This document shows positions 12,556 through 58,630 of a stretch of DNA of 64,000 bases, piece by piece. The position numbers and the translations under genes are program-made. Each line of letters begins with the position of its first letter. Positions within the stretch are counted from its first letter, which is position 1. Below the pieces are notes generated by a model that did no database searches, was not told where the DNA came from, and worked only from the letters and a program-made list of their open reading frames with translations. This DNA is from an uncultured Eubacteriales bacterium (GTDB lineage: Bacteria; Bacillota; Clostridia; Lachnospirales; Lachnospiraceae), in the NCBI GenBank assembly GCA_900314555.1, contig OMVQ01000113.1:4396-68395 (forward strand). Reading direction: 5' to 3'.

Positions 12556-13104
12556 TGCATATTTAACAGTTAGAAACAACTAAGAATGTTTAATAAGCTC
12601 TTATTTGCACTTACTTATATAAGACAATTTAACTGCGAATGACTTATTTGACAGATATATTTTTTCAAACTATTGCACTGAATTGCTAATTTGTCGATGC
12701 CAGTTTTTCGCTCTTTTGATTATTTGTATACATTCAATGCACAGACATTTAAACCAAAGAGTCCGTCTCTGACACACACTTGATTTATGACGTATCGTGT
12801 GTGTGAGTTATATGCCGCCAGATGCAAAAGGTCGGTGCAGAGGGGGGCATTTACTCACACCCGATTAAGGAATCTGAAAGCGTGTGTCATAGACGGACAC
12901 CTTTGGCTTAAAGGTCTGTCTGGTGAATGTACACAAAATTTGAGTGAAAAGCTGGCATCTGACAAATTTACGCAATTCATTTCAGACAGTTCGAAAATAT
13001 ATATCTGCAAATATGTCATACCCAGATAAAATGCTTCTCCTTATTAGTAAGTACAAATAAGAGTCTCCTCACGCCACCCCTATTTCTAACTGTTAAAATA
13101 TGCA
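12556..13104 (+). repeat. Family A long palindromic element, copy 1 (central 57 nt deleted)
   Basis: Nested inverted repeats 12556-76/13083-104, 12598-615/13046-63, 12696-713/12942-59; core homologous to 30834-31347 and 45771-46286. Confidence 0.9.
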
Positions 13105-19555: not shown

Positions 19556-19581
19556 ATTCTTTCACACTTTCTCCGTTTCTG
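19556..19581 (-). repeat. Family B terminal remnant supplying the ribF ribosome-binding region
   Basis: ATTCTTTCACACTTTCTCCGTTTCTG matches 57360-57386 with one gap and one mismatch. Confidence 0.55.
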
Positions 19582-30833: not shown

Positions 30834-31347
30834 TCAAACTTCATAAATATCGAATTGCTCTATCATCATATATCAGACAAACTTTGTATATATGAATATT
30901 TAAACATATGCTTCGAATTGCTAATTTGTCGGTATCATCTTTCTGCTCTTATGATTATTTGTATTCATTCAATGCCCAGACATTTACGTGGAGTTATCCG
31001 TCTCTGACACACACTCGATTTATAACGTATCGTGTGGGAGTTTATGCCGTCATATGTAAAAGGGCGGTGCAGTAAATTTCCGTTCAAGCGAAGCGCGTTT
31101 GATTTACTGCACCGCAATAATCTCTACAGATGACGGCATTTACTCCCACTAGATTAAGGCATACGAGAGTGTGTGTCATAGACGGACAACTTCGCTAAAA
31201 TGTCTGTTCAGTGAATGTATACAAAACTTGAGCAGAAAGATGACACCTGACAAATTTACGCAATTCTTGCAAAAGTTCAAATATTCATATATACAAATTT
31301 GGCTGCATACAGATTATCTGGTTCAATTCGATATTTATGAAGTTTGA
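30834..31347 (+). repeat. Family A long palindromic element, copy 2 (514 bp)
   Basis: Perfect 24-bp terminal inverted repeat TCAAACTTCATAAATATCGAATTG; nested stems to an apical TCAAGCGAAGCGCGTTTGA hairpin. Confidence 0.92.
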
Positions 31348-33701: not shown

Positions 33702-34643
33702 TTATTCATTTGATGAGTCTGTATCAAATAATGCATCAACAAAACTGTTAGCATCAAATTTCTGTAAATCTTCGATTTTCTCGCCAATTCCAATATATTT
33801 GACAGGAATTCCAAGTTCTGACTGAATTGCCACAGCGATACCACCCTTGGCAGTACCGTCCATTTTAGTAAGGATTACTCCTGTTATATCTGCACATTCC
33901 ATAAACTGCTTAGCCTGTGCTAATGCATTCTGTCCTGTTGTCGCATCTAATACTATGAAATTTTCTCTATATGCTTCACTATATTCCTTTTCAATGATTC
34001 TGTCAATTTTTTTTAGTTCAGCCATAAGATTTTTTTTGTTATGAAGTCGTCCTGCGGTATCGCAGATAAGCACATCTGCTTTTCTGGCTTTTGCTGCCTG
34101 AATGGCATCATATATAACTGCTGCTGGGTCTGAACCCTCCTGTTGTGCAATTATATCTGTACCTGCTCTGTGTGCCCATTCTGTAAGCTGTTCAATGGCT
34201 GCTGCCCTGAATGTATCTGCTGCTGCCATTATTACTTTCTTGCCTTTGCCTTTTATCTGTGCTGATAATTTACCAACCGAAGTAGTCTTACCCACACCAT
34301 TTACACCGATAACAAGTACAATTGACTTTCTGTCCTCGAATTCATAAGCATTCTCGCCTATATCCATCTGCTCTTTAATACTGTCGATTAAGAGCTGTTT
34401 ACATTCCTTTGGATCTTTGATTTTGTTAGCTTTAACTTTCTCTTTTAAATCATCAATAATCTTCATCGTAGTGGCAACACCTAAGTCACCCATTATAAGT
34501 ATCTCTTCGATTTCATCATAGAAATCATCATCAATACTTGAAAATCCGCTAAATATATTGTCAATTCCGGATACAATGTTATCTCTTGTCTTAGTAAGTC
34601 CTGATACTAACTTTCTAAAAAAGCCTTTCTTTTCTTCACTCAT
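33702..34643 (-). CDS. ftsY: SRP receptor FtsY
   Basis: [31 protein letters not shown]; start ATG 34643. Confidence 0.97.
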
Positions 34644-34656
34644 ATAATTCTCCATT

Positions 34657-34835
34657 CCGCAGGCACAAAGTGTCGGAGGAATCGCGAGTCAAATGTCAGA
34701 TTTGACTCTGCGATAGATGCTAAATGTGGTGCCTGCAACACATTTAGCCGTGCGAAAGAATTGGTGCATCAGCACAATTCTTTCACACTATTCTCCTTAA
34801 ATAATCGCATCAGCATTATTTTTCACACTGTTCTG
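34657..34835. repeat. Family B multi-hairpin cassette between smc and ftsY
   Basis: Four tandem hairpins; last one (34750-34788) is 37/39 identical to 57333-57371; a degenerate extra hairpin lies at 34799-34835. Confidence 0.85.
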
Positions 34836-34854
34836 ATATCACATAATTATACAC

Positions 34855-37800
34855 CTAATTCGTCAGTTCTGCATCTAATAAATCAACAGAAACAAGTGTA
34901 GACACACCTTTCTCCTGCATAGTTATACCATACAGTCTGTCTGCTGCCTCCATTGTACCTTTTCTATGGGTAATAACGATGAACTGTGTATATTTAGTTA
35001 ATTTATGAAGATAATTAGCATATCTTGAAACGTTTGAATCATCTAAGGCAGCCTCTATTTCATCAAGCAGACAGAATGGAGATGGCTTAAGATTCTGAAT
35101 GGCAAATAATAACGCAATCGCTGTAAGTGCTTTCTCACCACCGGATAACTGCATCATATTCTGAAGCTTCTTTCCTGGTGGTTGTGAGATGATTGTTATT
35201 CCTGCCTCTAAGATATCCTCGTCCTCATTCAGTTCTATAGTACCCTTACCACCACCAAATAATTCCTTGAATACCTTATCAAACTCTGTACGAATCTGTG
35301 CAAATTTCTCTGTAAACTGCGCCCTCATACCTTTGTCTAATTCATCAATAATCTGAATTAATGATTTCTCTGCTTCTACTAAGTCATCATGCTGTGCCTT
35401 TAAGAATTCATATCTTTCAGAAACACTCTTATATTCTTCAATAGAATTAACATTTACATCGCCGAGTCCTCTGATTTTAGCCTTTAATTCAGCAATGTTT
35501 TTCTTAAGCTCAGGAAGATTATTATATTCATCATTCTTAAGTTCTAATGCAATATTATATGTGATTTCATATTCATTCCACATATAATTAATCTGGTTAT
35601 CCTGCTGCTCTTCTAACTTCTCACGCTGACTGTTCAATCTATAGATTTCTTTATCTAACTGATTCATTTTCTCTGACAGACTTTCACGCTTAGCGAAGAA
35701 ATCTTTATGTTCATTAGACTGTTTCTCTTTCTTCTGATACAATTCGGTTATTTCTTCAGAATATTTATTAAATGATTTATCAGCCTCTTCAATTGCTTTC
35801 TTAATGCTTTCAATCTCATCTAGTTTATTCTGTACATCACTTCCTGAATCCTCAGCATTTTTCTGAATATTCTCAAGTTCAGCATTATTAGTCTCTATTT
35901 CACCGTCTATACGTCTGATATTCTCTGCGACAAAAGTAACTTTCTGGTTCATCTCCATGAATTCTAACTTCATACTGTCTACTTTCTCGCTCTGGGCAGC
36001 TTCTTTTGCCTTTTCTTTCTCCATATCCTCTGTAAGAGATTTTATCTTCTCTTCTAAAGATGCATTCAGGTCCTCATAAGTCTTTAATTCAGAATTAAGT
36101 TCACTGCTGCTTTCCTTAATATCAGAAATCTGTATTCCGATTTCAGCATTTTCTCTCTTGAAATCTTCGAAAGAGGTCTGCAATTCATCACGCTTTTCAG
36201 TTGCCTGATTAAGATTTAACTTAATTGTATTCTGTAAAATGAACTGCTCCTGCAATACTTTCTTGATTTTATCAAGTTCGTTAGTATACTCTAACACCTG
36301 ACTCTTATACTTTTTAACAGCTTCTTCACATTTCTTATAATTTTCCTGATTCTCTTTAATGCTCTTCTCTAAATCTTCAATCTCTCTTCTACGTCCAAGA
36401 AGATTACTTGAATTTCTGAAAGCACCACCCGACATTGAACCACCAGCATTGAGCAATTCTCCCTCAAGTGTAACAATTCTTAATGTGTAATTATATTTTC
36501 TTGCAATTATTAAAGCATTATCAATATGGTCTACTACAACTATTCTTCCTAACAGATATTTTGCAATAGCTTCATATTCTTTCTTAATATGCACAAGGTC
36601 ACAGGCAAGTCCTAACACTCCTCTTTCACTTAATACTCTTTCATTGTTAAAGCCTGTCCTGTTAGCAATACTGCTAAGTGGAAGAAATGTTGCTCTACCG
36701 AATTTGTTCTTCTTAAGATATTCAATTAAATCTTTAGCAGTATTTTCAGTATCGGTAACCACATTCTGTATACTACCGCCTAATGCAGTTTCAATAGCTA
36801 CCTCATATTGCTTATCAACCTTGATAATATCAGCAACTACACCGATTACACCTTTCTTCTGCTCTTTAACTTCCATTATCTTTCGGATACTGTTACCATA
36901 TCCCTCATATCTCTCAGTAATATTCTTAAGAGATTCTAACTTAGAATGGTTACGCTGGTATTCCATAGATAAATCTTTAGACTTCTTATCTAATTCTGAA
37001 AGATTTCTATTAGTCTCACTAATGTTATCAGTAATCTCATCACTCTTTTTCGAAAGTTCAATAATCTGCATACTTACATCTTTCAAATCACTTTCAAATT
37101 CTTCGATTACCTTATCCTGGCTCTCTCTGTCACTTGAGAACTTAATAAGCTTCTGGCTTATCTCAGATTTTCTTATGGAAACCTGTTCAAGCATTGTATC
37201 ATATCTCTGAATTTTTGATTTAACAGCCGACTTCTGATTTAATAAATCAATAATTTCATTCTTAGCCTCTTCAATTTCAGATAAGATAGACTCAATATTT
37301 TCAGAGATTCCTGCCAAAGCATCAAATTCTTTCTTACGTGTCTCATCAGCTTCTTTTAATACGCTGTTGATGTTATTCTTCTCATTAACATAAGATTCTT
37401 TCTCTTTCTGTAATTCAATTAATTTATCATTAATAGCCTGAATTCTTTCCTTGATATGTAAATCATTCATTTTAGCTGAATTAATCTGCTCATTTAATAA
37501 TCTGATTTCACCATCATATTTCTCTTTTAACAACTGAATCTTATTTAATTCATTCTTCTTCTCATCTACGTTAGAAGTAATCTCTTCTATCTCTAATTCT
37601 AACTGTTCATATTCAGTTTTAATTCTTTCAAATACTTTCTTAGTCTCTTCTAAATCATTAGTAGCAATCTCGTTCTTGCCATCAAGTTCAGATAACTTAT
37701 TCTTAATATTCTCAACTTCTAATAAGAACATATTAATATCATTTACTTTAAGTTCTTCTTTATATTTCAAATATTCTCTGGCTTTCTCAGACTGTCTCTC

Positions 37801-38415
37801 TAATGGCTTAACCTGTTTCTCTAATTCGCCTAAGATATCATTAACACGCACTAAATTAGCCTGTTCATCATCAAGCTTCTTCTGTGTCATTATCTTTCTT
37901 CGCTTATATTTAACGATACCTGCCGCTTCGTCAAAAAGCTCTCTTCTCTCTTCCGGCTTTCCTGATAAAATCTTATCTATCTGTCCCTGTCCGATAATAG
38001 AGTAACCCTCTTTACCGATACCGGTATCATAGAATAATTCATTTATGTCTTTCAGACGGCTTACTGTACCATTAATCATATATTCACTTTCACCTGAACG
38101 GAATAATCTTCTTGATACTGTAACTTCGTCAAAATCTATCGCCAGCGAATGGTCTGAATTATCAAGCGTTATGGCAACATAAGCAAAACCAAGCGGTTTT
38201 CTGTTCTCTGTTCCCGCAAAGATTACGTCTTCCATCTTCGCACCACGAAGCTGCTTTATTCTCTGCTCACCAAGAACCCATCTGACTGCATCGGCTACAT
38301 TACTCTTACCACTTCCATTTGGTCCGACAATTCCCGTAATACCATTATGAAATTCAAAATTTATCTTATTGGCAAATGATTTAAAGCCCTGAACCTCTAT
38401 ACTCTTTAAGTACAT
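34855..38415 (-). CDS. smc: Chromosome segregation protein SMC
   Basis: GPNGSGKSN, long coiled coils, hinge GRATFLPL, LSGGEK, LLDEIEAALD. Confidence 0.98.
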   Translation of the reverse strand: MYLKSIEVQGFKSFANKINFEFHNGITGIVGPNGSGKSNVADAVRWVLGEQRIKQLRGAKMEDVIFAGTENRKPLGFAYVAITLDNSDHSLAIDFDEVTVSRRLFRSGESEYMINGTVSRLKDINELFYDTGIGKEGYSIIGQGQIDKILSGKPEERRELFDEAAGIVKYKRRKIMTQKKLDDEQANLVRVNDILGELEKQVKPLERQSEKAREYLKYKEELKVNDINMFLLEVENIKNKLSELDGKNEIATNDLEETKKVFERIKTEYEQLELEIEEITSNVDEKKNELNKIQLLKEKYDGEIRLLNEQINSAKMNDLHIKERIQAINDKLIELQKEKESYVNEKNNINSVLKEADETRKKEFDALAGISENIESILSEIEEAKNEIIDLLNQKSAVKSKIQRYDTMLEQVSIRKSEISQKLIKFSSDRESQDKVIEEFESDLKDVSMQIIELSKKSDEITDNISETNRNLSELDKKSKDLSMEYQRNHSKLESLKNITERYEGYGNSIRKIMEVKEQKKGVIGVVADIIKVDKQYEVAIETALGGSIQNVVTDTENTAKDLIEYLKKNKFGRATFLPLSSIANRTGFNNERVLSERGVLGLACDLVHIKKEYEAIAKYLLGRIVVVDHIDNALIIARKYNYTLRIVTLEGELLNAGGSMSGGAFRNSSNLLGRRREIEDLEKSIKENQENYKKCEEAVKKYKSQVLEYTNELDKIKKVLQEQFILQNTIKLNLNQATEKRDELQTSFEDFKRENAEIGIQISDIKESSSELNSELKTYEDLNASLEEKIKSLTEDMEKEKAKEAAQSEKVDSMKLEFMEMNQKVTFVAENIRRIDGEIETNNAELENIQKNAEDSGSDVQNKLDEIESIKKAIEEADKSFNKYSEEITELYQKKEKQSNEHKDFFAKRESLSEKMNQLDKEIYRLNSQREKLEEQQDNQINYMWNEYEITYNIALELKNDEYNNLPELKKNIAELKAKIRGLGDVNVNSIEEYKSVSERYEFLKAQHDDLVEAEKSLIQIIDELDKGMRAQFTEKFAQIRTEFDKVFKELFGGGKGTIELNEDEDILEAGITIISQPPGKKLQNMMQLSGGEKALTAIALLFAIQNLKPSPFCLLDEIEAALDDSNVSRYANYLHKLTKYTQFIVITHRKGTMEAADRLYGITMQEKGVSTLVSVDLLDAELTN

Positions 38416-45770: not shown

Positions 45771-46286
45771 CTCAAACTTTGCACATATATGTTTGAATTA
45801 AATCATCTGTATTAAGTGAATTTGCATATATAAATATCGAAACTTTTGTTAGAAATGCTAATTTGTAGATATCTTTTTCGGCTCTTTTGATTATTTGAGT
45901 TCATTCAATGCCATACACTTAAAACGATGTGTTCGTCTATGCCACACACTTGATTTATGACGTATCGTGTGCAAGTTAATGCCGTCAGATGCAAAAGGGC
46001 GGTGCAGCAAATCACCGTTCAAGCAAAGCGCGTTTGATTAGCTGCACCGTAATAACCTATGCAGATGACGGCATTTATTTGCACTAGATAAAGGAATATG
46101 AAAGCGTGTGTCATAGACGTACATCTCGTCTTAAGTGTATGTCTGTTGAATGTACACAAAATTTGAGCCGAAAAAAAGATATCTTACAAATTTACGCAAT
46201 TCTTACAAGATGTTTCGATATTTATATCTGTCAAATTTACTTTAAAAGATGAATATAAACTGCAACATATATGTTCGAAGTTTGAG
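45771..46286 (+). repeat. Family A long palindromic element, copy 3 (516 bp)
   Basis: Termini CTCAAACTT / AAGTTTGAG; same nested stems and conserved loops as copy 2. Confidence 0.92.
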
Positions 46287-50655: not shown

Positions 50656-50885
50656 TCCAGTCACTCCAATCATAAATAATTTGTGGTACTTGTAAATATC
50701 TGTCGCAATCATATCATAAATGTTAATCAAGGTCAAACCAAAATGCCATATATTTAGTCATATTAACAGGATAAATTAATAAAATTATAATAAACTAATA
50801 AAAGAATTGCCTTTATGACAGATAAGAAATTGCCTGCACATTTCTCATCGTCTCTTAAAGCCACGGCACTCAGAAAGAAAATAAA

Positions 50886-51806
50886 ATGAAAAATCTCTTA
50901 CTTCGTATATTTCTTTGTCTTACACTTGTTGTTTTGCTGTTTTTTCCATCCTATTGTGCTGACGGTGTCTTATTAGGTATCAAATTATTTATTAATTCGT
51001 TATTACCTGCAATTCTTCCATTCATAATTTTCTCTAACTTTATGATTCAGCTTGACTATTCATGGCAGATAGGTCGGTTGTTCTATCCTATTACGCATAC
51101 TCTCTTCGGTGTATCTTACTATGGTTCTTATGCTGTCATTATGGGCTTTCTATGTGGTTATCCGGTCGGTGCCAAAATAACTTCGGACCTATACCTTAAT
51201 GGCAGTATAACCAAAGCTGAATCTGACTACATCCTGAAATTCGTTAATCACGCCAGTCCATCTTTCATTCAGGGTTATGTTGTACTTTCGTTATTAAATA
51301 CACCTGAATACAGATTTATCGCCATAATACTTACATATCTTCCAGAAGTAATAACAGGAATAATTTTCAGACGACATAAATCATTTAAAAATATTGATAC
51401 ATCAGCTTCTAAGATAAAATATCCAATAAATAAAATACTTGATGACAGCCTGTCTAATGCTATTTTAACTGTTGTTAAAATAGGTGGTTATCTGATTATT
51501 TTTACCACTATTGCAGGTATTATTATGAAAATTACATTTATTCCTGATATCTTCAAAGTTATTATGGTAGCTTTATTAGAGATAACCTCAGGAACTTATT
51601 ATCTGTCATTATTAAATATCAGTCTGTCTCTCAGGCTTCTTTGTATTGTAGCTGCCTGCGTGCTTGGTGGAGTGTCTACATTTTTCCAGATTAACAGCGT
51701 TCTATCTAAATTTGAATACAAAAAAAGAGACTACATATATTCTAAATGTGTCTCTTTAATAATTATGATAATATTATATGTTATTTTATTTACTATATTT
51801 AACTAA
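50886..51806 (+). CDS. ylbJ: YlbJ-like integral membrane protein (nucleoside-recognition/gate family)
   Basis: LLPAILPF, GFLCGYPVGAK, LEITSG motifs; next to coaD as in Bacillus. Confidence 0.75.
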   Translation: MKNLLLRIFLCLTLVVLLFFPSYCADGVLLGIKLFINSLLPAILPFIIFSNFMIQLDYSWQIGRLFYPITHTLFGVSYYGSYAVIMGFLCGYPVGAKITSDLYLNGSITKAESDYILKFVNHASPSFIQGYVVLSLLNTPEYRFIAIILTYLPEVITGIIFRRHKSFKNIDTSASKIKYPINKILDDSLSNAILTVVKIGGYLIIFTTIAGIIMKITFIPDIFKVIMVALLEITSGTYYLSLLNISLSLRLLCIVAACVLGGVSTFFQINSVLSKFEYKKRDYIYSKCVSLIIMIILYVILFTIFN

Positions 51807-56553: not shown

Positions 56554-57222
56554 CTACAATGCTTCATCTATATATTCAATTATCTTATCAACCACTTCAT
56601 CGATAGTCATATCAGAAGAATCTAAGATTACGGCACCCTCAGCTACAGTTAAAGGAGCACATTCCCTATGGGAATCTCTGTAATCACGCTTCTCAATTTC
56701 AGCCTCTATCTCTTCAATTGTTCCTGTATAGCCCTTTTCTTTCTGTTCGATAAATCTTCTCTTGGCTCTTGTATGCACTGACGCTGTAAGATATATCTTA
56801 ACTTCGGCATCTGGAAGTACATTAGAACCAATATCTCTTCCATCCATAATTACATTTTCTGTCTTGGCTATATTTCTCTGAAGTTCTAATAATTTAGCCC
56901 TTACCTGTGGATATGCCGAAACTGCTGAAGTCATCTGACTTACTTCTTCTGTTCTTATAAATGCATTAACATTTTCGCCATTTAGTAATACTTTCTGCTC
57001 TCCGTTTTCATATTCAATTGTAACGTCACAGTTTTCGCATACTTTGACTACACCGGCTTCATCATCTGCTAAAATATTTTCTCTTATGCACGCAAGTGCC
57101 ATTGCTCTGTACATTGCACCTGTATCCACATAGATAAACTGCTTCTTTGCTGCTGCAAGCTTTGCTATTGTACTCTTTCCCGCTCCTGCTGGTCCATCAA
57201 TTGCTACATTTATTTTTTTCAT
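56554..57222 (-). CDS. cmk: Cytidylate kinase
   Basis: AIDGPAGAGKST, DTGAMYR, MDGRDIG, RDYRD; start ATG 57222 (ORF-track extension runs through the repeat). Confidence 0.95.
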   Translation of the reverse strand: MKKINVAIDGPAGAGKSTIAKLAAAKKQFIYVDTGAMYRAMALACIRENILADDEAGVVKVCENCDVTIEYENGEQKVLLNGENVNAFIRTEEVSQMTSAVSAYPQVRAKLLELQRNIAKTENVIMDGRDIGSNVLPDAEVKIYLTASVHTRAKRRFIEQKEKGYTGTIEEIEAEIEKRDYRDSHRECAPLTVAEGAVILDSSDMTIDEVVDKIIEYIDEAL

Positions 57223-57240
57223 ACTAATCCTCATTTCTGA

Positions 57241-57386
57241 GCGACTTGTTGCGAAAGGGCGATGAGAAATTCGCATAGGCGATTTCTCATCTGCCATAAA
57301 AGCTATTTGCTTTCGCTCCGAAGCAAATAGCTGTGTGAAAGAATTGGTGCATCGGCACAATTCTTTCACACTTATCTCCATTTCTG
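57241..57386. repeat. Family B multi-hairpin cassette between baiN-like gene and cmk
   Basis: Hairpins GATGAGAAAT/ATTTCTCATC, AGCTATTTGCTT/AAGCAAATAGCT and GTGTGAAAGAATTG/CAATTCTTTCACAC. Confidence 0.85.
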
Positions 57387-57388
57387 TT

Positions 57389-58630
57389 TTAATATTCCAT
57401 ACCTGCAAGTCGTCCTGTAGACCATGCTATCTGTAGGTTATAACCACCTGTCAGTGCATCAACATCTAACATTTCGCCTGCTAAATATAAATTACTGATA
57501 ATTTTCGATTCCATTGTTCCCGGATCTACTTCCTTAACCTTAACACCACCCTGGGTAATTATCGCTTCATTAAAGCCTCTTAGTGATGTTACTGTAAGTT
57601 TTAATCCCTTAAATGCTTCAACCATTCGGTTTCTCTCTTCTTTAGAAATACTATTTACTTTTTTATGAGGTTCTATCTCACAATAATCTAGCATAACAGG
57701 AATTAACTTTTTAGGCAACAGATTATCCATAACATTTACAATATCTTTATTAATTCCATTCGTAAATTCTCTAAGTATTCTGTCATCTAACTGTTCTTTA
57801 CTAAGTGCCGGTTTTAAATCTATCTTAGCAATCAGATTGCCCTCTTTAAGATATTTGCCGACAACACTGCTTCCACTTAATACTATCGGACCGCTGATAC
57901 CAAAATGTGTAAAAAGCATTTCGCCAAATTCCTCATACACAGGCTTTTTATCACCCTCCTTACGGAAAAATGCTATAGTAACATTCTTAAGTGATAAGCC
58001 CTGTAATTCCTTAGCGAACTCTTCCTTTACATTCATTGGCACAAGTGCAGGACTTAAATCAGTTATCGTATGCCCATATTTTCTAAGAATATCAAAGCCT
58101 TTTCCATCAGAACCGGTCACCGGATAAGACATACCACCTGTAGCCATTATAACTTTATCAGCGTATACTTTTCTGCCCTCTTCAAGAACAACTCCTTTTA
58201 CTGTATTATCCTCAACTATCAGGTCTTTTACAAATGTATTATACTCTATCTCTACATTTTCATTTCTAAGTGCTTTCTTTAATGTATTAATAACATCTGA
58301 GGACTTGTCTGATACAGGGAAAATTCTGTTGCCTCTTTCCACTTTCAGATGTAATCCGTTCTCCTCAAAAAATGCTTTAACATCTTCATTGCTAAACGAA
58401 TAAATCGCACTATACATAAACTTTCTGTTAGTAATTATATTATTAAGAATTGTCTCCACATCAGAATCATTTGTTATATTACATCTTCCTTTTCCGGTAA
58501 TGAATAACTTCTTTCCTGCTTTCTCATTTCTTTCAAATACAGTTACTTTATTTCCACACAAAGCAGACGAATATGCAGCCATCATTCCTGCCGCACCTGC
58601 TCCTATAACTATAACTTTTCTATCTGCCAT
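57389..58630 (-). CDS. BaiN/HI0933-family FAD-dependent oxidoreductase
   Basis: GAGAAGMMAA, ITGKGRCNITN, LFTHFGISGP, TQGGV, GGYNLQIAWSTG. Confidence 0.92.
   Translation of the reverse strand: MADRKVIVIGAGAAGMMAAYSSALCGNKVTVFERNEKAGKKLFITGKGRCNITNDSDVETILNNIITNRKFMYSAIYSFSNEDVKAFFEENGLHLKVERGNRIFPVSDKSSDVINTLKKALRNENVEIEYNTFVKDLIVEDNTVKGVVLEEGRKVYADKVIMATGGMSYPVTGSDGKGFDILRKYGHTITDLSPALVPMNVKEEFAKELQGLSLKNVTIAFFRKEGDKKPVYEEFGEMLFTHFGISGPIVLSGSSVVGKYLKEGNLIAKIDLKPALSKEQLDDRILREFTNGINKDIVNVMDNLLPKKLIPVMLDYCEIEPHKKVNSISKEERNRMVEAFKGLKLTVTSLRGFNEAIITQGGVKVKEVDPGTMESKIISNLYLAGEMLDVDALTGGYNLQIAWSTGRLAGMEY

What the first reader, a model, noticed from the sequence alone, without database searches (positions are those of the whole stretch)
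34657..34835. Family B: ~140-bp four-hairpin cassette at intra-operon junctions
The smc-ftsY and baiN-cmk junctions hold cassettes with the same architecture: a small hairpin, a hairpin with a bulged T near its base (ATCGC-GAGTCAAAT/ATTTGACTC-T-GCGAT versus GGC-GATGAGAAAT/ATTTCTCATC-T-GCC), a third hairpin, and a near-identical terminal hairpin (37/39). The middle stems differ almost completely in sequence but keep pairing. A degenerate extra hairpin with the same GCATCAGC loop follows at 34799-34835. Both cassettes have an SD-like GGAG(A)/GAGG at each end. Inference: a REP/BIME-like or structured-RNA repeat that could stabilise or process polycistronic mRNA. It should be compared with known multicopy clostridial motifs such as Clostridiales-1.
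Basis: partly seen in the sequence, partly recalled or inferred. Interest (0 to 1): 0.65.

Follow-up and report, generated by a model that had tools for sequence, protein, structure and literature searches.

The report
Ribosome-site-carrying hairpin repeat before start codons
The two cassettes are copies of a roughly 140-base folded repeat, present about 138 times in this gut bacterium and in many related Lachnospiraceae, that always ends at a gene's start codon and supplies its ribosome-binding site; I found it in neither Rfam nor the papers searched.

Summary

The two cassettes are not a local oddity:
- The genome (2.66 Mb, close to Bovifimicola ammoniilytica) holds about 138 copies in two subfamilies, B1 and B2, with interchangeable H1 variants.
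- 112 of 127 loci are co-oriented with the downstream gene.
- Homology runs to the start codon and stops there.
- A covariance model finds full-length copies in 23 of 151 Lachnospiraceae genera and in a second family of the order.

All helices show compensatory changes. The H2 loop also pairs with the segment just 5' of the SD. This pseudoknot covaries across genera and competes with the tail hairpin. G:U exceeds A:C, which points to folding of the sense strand.

Negative results: no Rfam match, no RAYT, no terminal inverted repeats, no conserved ORF, no promoter or terminator, no shared gene set.

About half of the syntenic loci lack the element in B. ammoniilytica. Junctions show SD-containing direct repeats of 6-24 nt.

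Best reading: a portable, RBS-carrying structured leader repeat, closest in kind to Neisseria REP2. Its spread mechanism and RNA-level role are inferred only.

The parts
34799..34828 (-). Truncated S-type H1 (GUGUGAAAAAUAAUGCUGAUGCGAUUAUUU).
   Evidence: About 66 S-type heads occur genome-wide. A 42-nt stretch holding it is absent at the orthologous site in B. ammoniilytica.
34787..34798 (-). Copy 1: 5' SD-like module AAGGAGAAUAGU, directly before the GUG of H1. It is a direct repeat of the 3' SD module.
   Evidence: An SD-like 5' flank is present in 77 of 112 loci.
34750..34788 (-). Copy 1: H1 (T-type head hairpin, conserved UGAU loop).
   Evidence: (helix 1: 91% of cells paired, 12 of 16 pairs with changes on both sides).
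34719..34748 (-). Copy 1: H2. Its loop GCAGGCAC (34729-34736) is the 5' strand of the pseudoknot.
34681..34714 (-). Copy 1: H3 with a bulged A (B1 subfamily).
34659..34681 (-). Copy 1: UUCCUCC tract and small tail hairpin. GUGCCUGC (34659-34666) is the 3' strand of the pseudoknot.
   Evidence: Duplex energy -17.5 kcal/mol.
34641..34658 (-). Copy 1: GGAAUGGAGAAUUAUAUG, which is the SD, the spacer and the likely ftsY start codon (AUG at 34643-34641).
57370..57383 (-). Copy 2: 5' SD-like module AAAUGGAGAUAAGU.
57333..57371 (-). Copy 2: H1 (T-type), 37/39 identical to copy 1.
57301..57332 (-). Copy 2: H2 (B2 subfamily). Its loop GAGCGA (57313-57318) is the pseudoknot 5' strand.
57258..57295 (-). 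Copy 2: H3 with a bulged A (B2 subfamily).
57220..57252 (-). Copy 2: tail hairpin, pseudoknot 3' strand UCGCUC (57239-57244), CUCA-GAAA-UGAG mini-hairpin that half-covers the SD, SD GAGGA, spacer and the cmk AUG (57222-57220).
   Evidence: The whole 148-nt element is absent at the orthologous site of B. ammoniilytica.
50782..50891 (+). Third, degraded B2-type copy. It keeps H3, the tail and an SD remnant and runs into an AUG at 50887.
   Evidence: 40 bits, E = 7.5e-8.

Best explanation
Each cassette is one copy of a portable, structured translation-initiation leader. This is an oriented interspersed repeat of about 140-148 nt found in Lachnospiraceae. It fills the gap between two co-transcribed genes, ends exactly at the downstream start codon, and provides that gene's Shine-Dalgarno sequence and spacer.

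Shown:
- The copy number, orientation and boundaries.
- The modular make-up: interchangeable H1 heads and two body subfamilies.
- Conserved base pairing of H1, H2 and the tail hairpin, tested column by column; H3 pairs within each subfamily by eye.
- A pseudoknot between the H2 loop and the segment just upstream of the SD.
- The taxonomic spread, and presence/absence differences between two species about 95% identical in DNA.

Inferred:
- The element is transcribed within the operon mRNA and folds as RNA.
- The fold keeps, and in subfamily B2 perhaps tunes, access of ribosomes to the SD: the pseudoknot competes with a local hairpin that covers the SD. An insertion would therefore leave the downstream gene translatable and be tolerated.
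- Copies are gained and lost by homology-driven exchange at the SD-containing direct repeats (template switching or recombination), not by a cut-and-paste transposase.
- Loss leaves a solo 'tail + SD' footprint that still works as a ribosome-binding site.
For: Copy number and position:
- 65 B1 + 73 B2 bodies lie in 136 loci.
- 112 of 127 loci are co-oriented with the downstream ORF.
- Alignment of 3' ends shows conservation up to the start codon and none after it.
- Element genes have the consensus AAUGGAGAUUAGUAUG down to position -1. The other 1844 genes show only a fuzzy GGAGG.

Structure:
- On alignment A2, 91.9% of cells pair against 38-46% for slid controls; 25 of 35 pairs have changes on both sides; 0 of 500 shuffles reach this.
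- Pseudoknot: on A2 the core pairs are 83-97% paired with CG/GC swaps. On 29 copies from other genera, aligned by a model that held no pseudoknot, 89.9% pair against 30-48% slid, and covariation is 0.366 against 0.150 (0 of 500).
- G:U versus A:C is 79:43 in helices and 16:7 in the pseudoknot.
- Pseudoknot duplex energies are -17.5 and -12.2 kcal/mol, against -6.5 and -8.2 for the local tail folds.
- In B2 the SD is less accessible than in ordinary genes (0.23 against 0.51), and rises to 0.38 when the pseudoknot strands are taken out of play.

Distribution:
- Full-length hits in 23 of 151 Lachnospiraceae genera, many at the scoring cap.
- Hits in a second family of the order.

Turnover:
- About 25-30 of 57 syntenic loci lack the element in B. 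ammoniilytica, with size differences of 141 or 145-148 nt.
- Junctions show direct repeats of 6-24 nt made of tail + SD. The 3' copy keeps the locus's own spacer.
- One allele retains half of H2, so it is a deletion product.
- 63 solo modules exist against about 6 expected; 57 sit before ORFs and 13 keep tail remnants.

Other:
- No promoter or terminator in either cassette.
- Downstream genes are functionally unrelated.
Against: - No transcript data could be obtained, so transcription, processing and folding in vivo are unproven.
- The SD-access switch fits B2 but not B1. In B1 the SD is as accessible as in ordinary genes, and slightly less so when the pseudoknot strands are removed (0.50 to 0.36).
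- A continuous 10-bp pseudoknot inside a 10-nt loop is sterically doubtful, so only part of it may form together with H2.
- No copy is more than 96.7% identical to another. The best paralogue is about 92% identical, while orthologous copies are 94.8% identical. Recent insertion is therefore not demonstrated, and much of the polymorphism may be loss.
- No enzyme or donor mechanism was identified.
- Strong conservation of primary sequence in stems and loops across genera hints at a protein partner or a function not captured here.
Confidence: 0.55

Rival explanations
1. Global cis-regulatory RNA switch. The fold is an aptamer-like or protein-binding platform, and the mutually exclusive pseudoknot and tail hairpin (with the anti-SD hairpin) form an expression platform. 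More than 100 unrelated genes would then answer to one signal, such as a small molecule, an RNA-binding protein, temperature or ribosome status.
For: - Two alternative helices that share one strand both covary.
- Loop and junction sequences (UGAU loop, GCAGA bulge, GUGUGAAAAAU) are conserved across genera.
- The B2 SD is sequestered locally and partly released in the pseudoknot state.
- Both subfamilies coexist in several genera.
Against: - Gene association is not conserved across genera: 2 of 17 against about 0.8 expected.
- Downstream functions are unrelated.
- B1 does not behave as a switch in the crude model.
- Copies within one genome are 85-95% identical, the pattern of a spreading repeat rather than of independently maintained riboswitches.
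- Many close relatives lack the family altogether.
Confidence: 0.2
2. mRNA stabiliser or processing module. After endonucleolytic cleavage of the operon transcript, the 5' SD-like site plus H1, or the compact pseudoknotted fold, protects the downstream cistron from 5'-to-3' decay by RNase J. This would resemble the STAB-SD sequence of B. thuringiensis cryIIIA (recalled from my own knowledge, not checked) or 5' hairpin stabilisers. Alternatively the hairpins are RNase III or RNase Y targets that set cistron stoichiometry.
For: - Mostly intra-operon location immediately after the upstream stop codon.
- An SD-like motif not used for a real gene sits at the 5' end in 77 of 112 loci.
- Very stable folds.
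- No terminator.
Against: - No expression or end-mapping data.
- 35 of 112 loci lack the 5' SD-like site.
- It does not explain why the repeat must run exactly to the start codon.
- It does not explain why the H2 loop pairs next to the 3' SD.
Confidence: 0.12
3. DNA-level REP/BIME-like or MITE-like element. The palindromes act as double- or single-stranded DNA, for example as binding sites for nucleoid proteins or gyrase, or as substrates of a RAYT/IS200-type or other transposase.
For: - Mosaic, modular arrays of palindromic units, with tandem arrays at 8-9 loci.
- Presence/absence polymorphism.
- Patchy distribution.
Against: - No PF01797 (Y1/RAYT/IS200 TnpA) gene in a 99.9% complete genome.
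- No terminal inverted repeats and no fixed-length target duplication.
- Strict orientation relative to genes.
- G:U over A:C bias, and a loop-to-tail pseudoknot that a cruciform does not need.
- No match in phage or plasmid collections.
- Reverse transcriptase genes do not track the element.
Confidence: 0.05
4. Coding sequence. The GUG at the start of H1, preceded by an SD, opens a leader peptide or an N-terminal extension of the downstream protein.
For: - The SD + spacer + GUG-AAA-AAU at the 5' end mimics a gene start.
- In some copies the frame is open into the downstream gene; 47 loci overlap the longest ORF call.
Against: - GUG-to-AUG lengths are spread over all three residues mod 3.
- Only 12 of 86 copies are open in the gene's frame, no more than in another frame.
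- Two of the four H1 variants, including both window copies, have a stop after five codons.
- Variation preserves pairing, not codons.
Confidence: 0.02

Closest known systems
Neisseria REP2 repeats (CREN), with the similar Borrelia plasmid IR-A/IR-B sequences. Described in Delihas 2011, PMC3184786 (read), citing Parkhill 2000, Morelle 2003 and Dunn 1994.
   Same: - 120-150 nt interspersed repeat without terminal inverted repeats.
- Internal stem-loops predicted at the RNA level.
- Carries a ribosome-binding site and abuts the ATG of unrelated downstream genes.
- Origin and way of spreading unknown.
   Different: - No sequence relation expected (different phylum; not tested).
- REP2 carries a promoter and marks about 14 co-regulated genes in about 26 copies.
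- This family has about 138 copies per genome, sits mainly inside operons with no promoter detected, and has 4-5 hairpins plus a covarying pseudoknot.
- It spans many genera, and its downstream gene set is not conserved.
REP/BIME elements with RAYT transposases (Enterobacteriaceae, Pseudomonas)
   Same: - High-copy extragenic palindromic units.
- Combined into mosaics.
- Persist within lineages.
   Different: - REPs are about 35 nt and GC-rich, lie mostly after genes in both orientations, and go with a Y1 (RAYT) gene.
- This element is 140 nt and AT-rich, has one orientation, lies before start codons, and the genome has no Y1 gene.
BOX elements of Streptococcus pneumoniae (boxA-boxB-boxC). From my own knowledge; not tested here.
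   Same: - Modular build from interchangeable hairpin-forming modules.
- Intergenic, many copies, in a Firmicute.
- No transposase of its own.
   Different: - BOX does not end at start codons or supply the SD.
- No pseudoknot is reported for it.
- No sequence similarity was looked for.
SD-sequestering expression platforms of translational riboswitches and RNA thermometers
   Same: An upstream strand competes for pairing with, or next to, the SD. Mutually exclusive helices are both supported by covariation.
   Different: - No ligand-binding family matches.
- The copies look like a spreading repeat.
- Downstream genes are unrelated.
- B1 shows no SD occlusion in the model.

Membership tests
REP/BIME (RAYT-associated REPINs) | Short (about 20-40 nt) GC-rich imperfect palindrome units | tested here: not met
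   The unit is 140-148 nt, 40-43% GC, with 4-5 different hairpins.
REP/BIME (RAYT-associated REPINs) | A RAYT / Y1 HUH transposase gene (PF01797) in the genome | tested here: not met
   No PF01797 match in G000, which is 99.86% complete. The control genomes scored as expected.
REP/BIME (RAYT-associated REPINs) | Occurs in both orientations, typically downstream of genes or between convergent genes | tested here: not met
   112 of 127 loci are co-oriented with the downstream ORF and end at its start codon.
MITE | Terminal inverted repeats | tested here: not met
   The ends (AGUGUGAAA... and ...CUGCGG or ...GCUCAGA + SD) are not inverted repeats.
MITE | Target-site duplication of fixed length | tested here: not met
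   The flanking direct repeats vary from 6 to 24 nt and always consist of tail + SD sequence.
MITE | A parent insertion sequence with matching ends | not tested
   Only PF01797 and PF00078 were searched. No systematic IS survey was made.
Neisseria REP2-like RBS-carrying repeats (a kind, not a homologous family) | 120-150 nt, no TIR, internal stem-loops, RBS, fused to the ATG of downstream genes | tested here: met
   REP2 features as described in PMC3184786.
Neisseria REP2-like RBS-carrying repeats (a kind, not a homologous family) | Carries its own promoter | tested here: inconclusive
   There is no promoter-like excess in the two window cassettes, and 95 of 112 loci sit behind a co-oriented ORF. 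The scan covers sigma-70-type sites only, and there are no transcript data.
Any Rfam 15 family, including Clostridiales-1 | Score at or above the family's gathering threshold | tested here: not met
   No hits at gathering threshold in the whole window. Only chance-level snoRNA/CRISPR hits at E of 1.5-9 in 34500-35000.
Riboswitch / dedicated cis-regulatory leader | Association with a conserved, functionally related gene set | tested here: not met
   2 of 17 downstream genes from other genera have an element-bearing homologue in G000, against about 0.8 expected. Functions are diverse.
Riboswitch / dedicated cis-regulatory leader | Alternative structures that gate a terminator or the SD | tested here: inconclusive
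   The pseudoknot and tail hairpin are mutually exclusive and both covary. Modelled SD access changes in the expected direction only in B2.
Retroelement-mobilised (SINE-like) repeat | A reverse transcriptase present wherever the repeat is abundant | tested here: not met
   G044, G096 and G154 are rich in the element but have no RVT_1 match. Several genomes without the element do have one.

The most novel reading that the evidence does not exclude
The element is a mobile 'plug-in' translational switch. It would be a self-contained RNA module whose pseudoknot and anti-SD hairpin are alternative states read by a still unknown signal or protein. By spreading to the start codons of about 5-7% of all genes, it would wire unrelated operon-internal genes into one post-transcriptional regulon in many gut Lachnospiraceae. 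It would target translation-initiation regions by homology, because its own circular-permuted junction (tail-SD-spacer-GUG-AAA) mimics a gene start.
Probability: 0.15. Interest if true: 0.85.

Novelty: new variant of a known kind. Interest (0 to 1): 0.62.

Why it matters
Lachnospiraceae are dominant gut bacteria. In this genome about 106 genes take their ribosome-binding site from the repeat, and about 57 more carry its solo footprint. The element has therefore rewritten the translation-initiation regions of roughly 7% of genes.

- It is a natural 'standardised RBS cassette' with a conserved RNA fold. That bears on how operon-internal translation is set, on how selfish repeats stay harmless, and on the design of expression parts for these organisms.
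- It confuses gene-start calling: many longest ORFs run into it.
- It also confuses short-read assembly: one metagenome scaffold appears to be joined through it.
- If the pseudoknot proves to be a switch, it would be a new way of building a large post-transcriptional regulon.

Tried and rejected
- Rfam at gathering and permissive thresholds: nothing.
- RAYT/IS200 Y1 transposase: absent.
- Reverse transcriptase as mobiliser: presence does not track the element.
- Phage and plasmid collections: no match.
- Leader peptide or N-terminal extension: no frame preference, and stops in the common head variants.
- Conserved regulon: no.
- Promoter or terminator inside the cassettes: none.
- Simple target-site-duplication model: rejected, because repeat length varies and some 'empty' alleles are clearly deletion products.
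- Recent burst of transposition: not supported, because no near-identical copies exist.
- General 'pseudoknot frees the SD' model: fits B2 only.
- Strain-level polymorphism by exact-protein look-up: the only hit was a 1.8-kb metagenome scaffold. It joins the upstream flank of another G000 element locus (C37:16562) to cmk through the repeat, so it is probably an assembly chimera (compared).
- Sequence-string and keyword literature searches found no description.
- My first loop-versus-tail complementarity script parsed only 110 of 165 copies and was noisy. I replaced it with column-based tests.

Full report
**1. What is there**

The four flanking genes are on the minus strand. Pfam identifies them as SMC (34855-38415), FtsY (33702-34643/34655), an HI0933/BaiN-like flavoprotein (57389-58630) and cytidylate kinase (56554-57222).

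Read as RNA, each intergenic cassette runs in this order:
- an SD-like module;
- H1, GUGUGAAAG...UGAU...CUUUC(G/A)CAC, which is 37/39 identical between the copies;
- H2;
- H3, with one bulged A;
- a small tail hairpin;
- the SD, a 6-7-nt spacer and the AUG.

Both cassettes fold far better than shuffles, with z-scores of -5.9 and -7.7. The extra hairpin at 34799-34828 is a 3'-truncated H1 of another variant.

**2. It is a large repeat family**

blastn and nhmmer against the window's own genome (2.66 Mb, 124 contigs) find 65 'B1' bodies like copy 1 and 73 'B2' bodies like copy 2, in 136 loci. Eight or nine of these loci are tandem arrays.

Nearly all bodies are preceded by an H1. H1 comes in at least four variants that share the stem base and the UGAU loop but have compensating distal stems. 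B1 and B2 align well and share the bases of H2 and H3. Only the distal parts and the tail differ.

**3. Position and boundaries**

- 112 of 127 loci are co-oriented with the downstream ORF.
- 95 of 112 have a co-oriented upstream ORF, with a median of 24 nt between its stop and H1.
- Similarity among copies continues through the SD and spacer to the start codon and ends there.
- A position table shows AAUGGAGAUUAGUAUG conserved to position -1 in element genes. The other 1844 genes show only a diffuse GGAGG.

The repeat therefore supplies the ribosome-binding site.

The 5' flank carries a similar SD module directly before the GUG of H1 in 77 of 112 loci, so most copies are bracketed by SD-containing direct repeats.

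There is no conserved ORF. GUG-to-AUG distances fall in all three frames, and open frames are rare and unbiased. No sigma-70-like promoter excess and no intrinsic terminator lies in either cassette. A random sample of downstream genes is functionally unrelated: ABC permease and ATPase, AzlC, a GntR regulator, CobW, a hydrolase and MiaA.

**4. Structure**

I aligned 36 copies: the two window copies, 33 from B. ammoniilytica and one from a Lachnospira MAG. A hand-drawn structure of H1, H2, the tail hairpin and an anti-SD:SD helix pairs 91.9% of cells, against 38-46% for slid controls. 25 of 35 pairs have changes on both sides, and no shuffle out of 500 reaches this.

I then noticed that the H2 loop is complementary to the segment immediately 5' of the SD:
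- B1: GCAGGCAC with GUGCCUGC, or GCAGACGU with ACGUCUGC;
- B2: (U)GAGCGA with UCGCUC(A);
- other genera: CCGGAGCG with CGCUCCGG, UCAGAGC with GCUCUGA, CCGAAGC with GCUUCGG.

Column tests support this pseudoknot:
- In the first alignment the core pairs are 83-97% paired with CG/GC swaps.
- In 29 copies from other genera, 89.9% pair against 30-48% slid, and covariation is 0.366 against 0.150 (0 of 500). These copies were aligned by a model that held no pseudoknot.

The pseudoknot's 3' strand overlaps the 3' arm of the tail hairpin. The two helices are therefore alternatives, and both covary.

G:U pairs outnumber A:C mismatches, 79:43 in helices and 16:7 in the pseudoknot. This is expected if the sense strand, most simply the mRNA, is what folds.

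Duplex energies for the pseudoknot are -17.5 and -12.2 kcal/mol, more favourable than the local tail folds at -6.5 and -8.2.

In a crude accessibility model:
- The B2 SD is more buried than in ordinary genes (0.23 against 0.51 unpaired), and is partly released when the pseudoknot strands are withheld (0.38).
- B1 does not behave this way (0.50 falling to 0.36).

A general 'pseudoknot opens the SD' mechanism is therefore only a hypothesis. A full 10-bp pseudoknot within a 10-nt loop is also sterically unlikely.

**5. Distribution**

The FtsY search places the organism next to Bovifimicola ammoniilytica (99% identity). Genome G007 is that species' strain Sanger_97, as shown by the matching contig length of 405,639 nt.

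- By BLAST, 7 of 15 genomes of the genus carry the family.
- The covariance model finds full-length matches of 80-170 bits in 23 of 151 genera of the family, many at the scoring cap.
- It also finds matches in three genomes of a second family of the order.
- Both subfamilies occur in several genera.
- There is no match in phage or plasmid collections.

The smc-ftsY junction carries divergent versions in two other lineages and is empty (TAATTTGATGGAGGAAATATG) in a closer one.

**6. Turnover and junctions**

I fetched 1.59 Mb of G007. Of 57 G000 element loci with both flanks found there, about 20 are shared. About 25-30 lack one or two units, with size differences of 141 nt for B1 or 145-148 nt for B2. 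The cmk copy of this window is one of those missing in G007. Its empty site reads AAAGCGGAAUGGAGUUUAGUAUG. Only about 7 of 37 G007 loci are missing in G000.

The junctions show:
- no terminal inverted repeats;
- direct repeats of 6-24 nt made of tail + SD, for example a 24-nt repeat at C21:712, and a repeat of about 20 nt with a rare AAAC variant in both copies and in the empty site at C14:25425;
- a 3' copy that keeps the locus's own spacer, while the 5' copy has the element-type UAGU|GUG.

This is the pattern expected from exchange within a shared SD module. It is not the pattern of a staggered cut of fixed size.

One G007 allele retains half of H2 and is plainly a deletion product. Many 'empty' sites keep tail remnants.

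Genome-wide there are 63 solo modules against about 6 in a reversed-genome null. 57 of them directly precede ORFs.

Orthologous copies are 94.8% identical, the same as their flanks. The best paralogue within G000 is 92% identical at the median and 96.7% at most. Recent insertion is therefore not shown, and loss explains much of the polymorphism.

No Y1 transposase is present, and reverse transcriptase genes do not track the element.

**7. Interpretation**

The best-supported reading is a portable, structured, RBS-carrying leader repeat. It is transcribed within operons, and its RNA fold keeps the downstream gene translatable, and may tune translation in B2. It is gained and lost by homology-driven events at its SD-bearing direct repeats.

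Rivals:
- a true global translational switch;
- a DNA-level REP/MITE-like element;
- a coding sequence.

The last two are poorly supported.

**8. Comparison and novelty**

No Rfam family matches. Keyword and sequence-string searches of the paper library found no description.

The closest described kind is Neisseria REP2, with the Borrelia IR repeats. These have no terminal inverted repeats, are 120-150 nt, contain stem-loops, and carry an RBS and ATG upstream of genes (PMC3184786).

This family differs in these ways:
- no detectable promoter;
- an intra-operon position;
- five-fold higher copy number;
- a covarying pseudoknot;
- a family-wide spread;
- no conserved gene set.

Earlier notes of this scan describe what appears to be the same family in other genomes, and one mentions a pseudoknot. 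I treated these as leads and tested the claims independently here.

I class the finding as a new variant of a known kind.

Noticed in passing
window 50782-50891 (+): A third, degraded B2-type copy. H1 and H2 are lost; H3, the tail and an SD remnant are kept. It runs into an AUG at 50887 and is shared with B. ammoniilytica (size difference 0).
   Followed up: partly
window 19556-19581 (-) = G000 C9:23951-23976: A 26-27-nt stretch matches the 5' SD module plus the first bases of H1 of copy 2 (25/27), without any element body. It is probably one of the solo-module footprints.
   Followed up: partly
G000 C53:32117-32251 (L088:2117-2251): A different repeat of about 135 nt (TTTTTACTTATCAGGAAATTTTG...GACATTCTTTATTC) with GC-rich hairpins lies just upstream of an element. 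It is absent at the orthologous site of G007, yet more than 25 copies at 92-96% identity occur elsewhere in G007. This looks like a second, more recently active interspersed repeat.
   Followed up: no
window 12655-12978, 30890-31266, 45876-46201: Three copies of a longer (about 300-500 nt) dispersed repeat, 78-89% identical.
   Followed up: no
L208 (ENA metagenome scaffold_118584, 1815 nt), 420-600: The scaffold encodes an identical Cmk. Its upstream flank and H1/H2 come from another G000 element locus (C37:16562), joined within the repeat. It is most likely a short-read assembly chimera through the repeat.
   Followed up: partly
G000 genome-wide: 63 solo 'AAUG(GAG/AGG)AUUAGUAUG' modules without an element body (about 6 expected). 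57 directly precede ORFs of at least 60 codons and 13 keep tail remnants. About 7% of all genes therefore use an element-type ribosome-binding site.
   Followed up: partly
window 34655 and 57408 (-): The longest-ORF start calls for ftsY (AUG inside GGAAUGGAG) and cmk (UUG at 57408, reading through the whole cassette) are probably artefacts of the repeat. 47 element loci overlap the longest ORF in this way.
   Followed up: partly
G000 C53:~30860-30990 (L088:860-990): A run of about 12-nt TTTCATGATTTAC-like tandem units after a gene differs in length between G000 and G007 (35- and 64-nt gaps).
   Followed up: no
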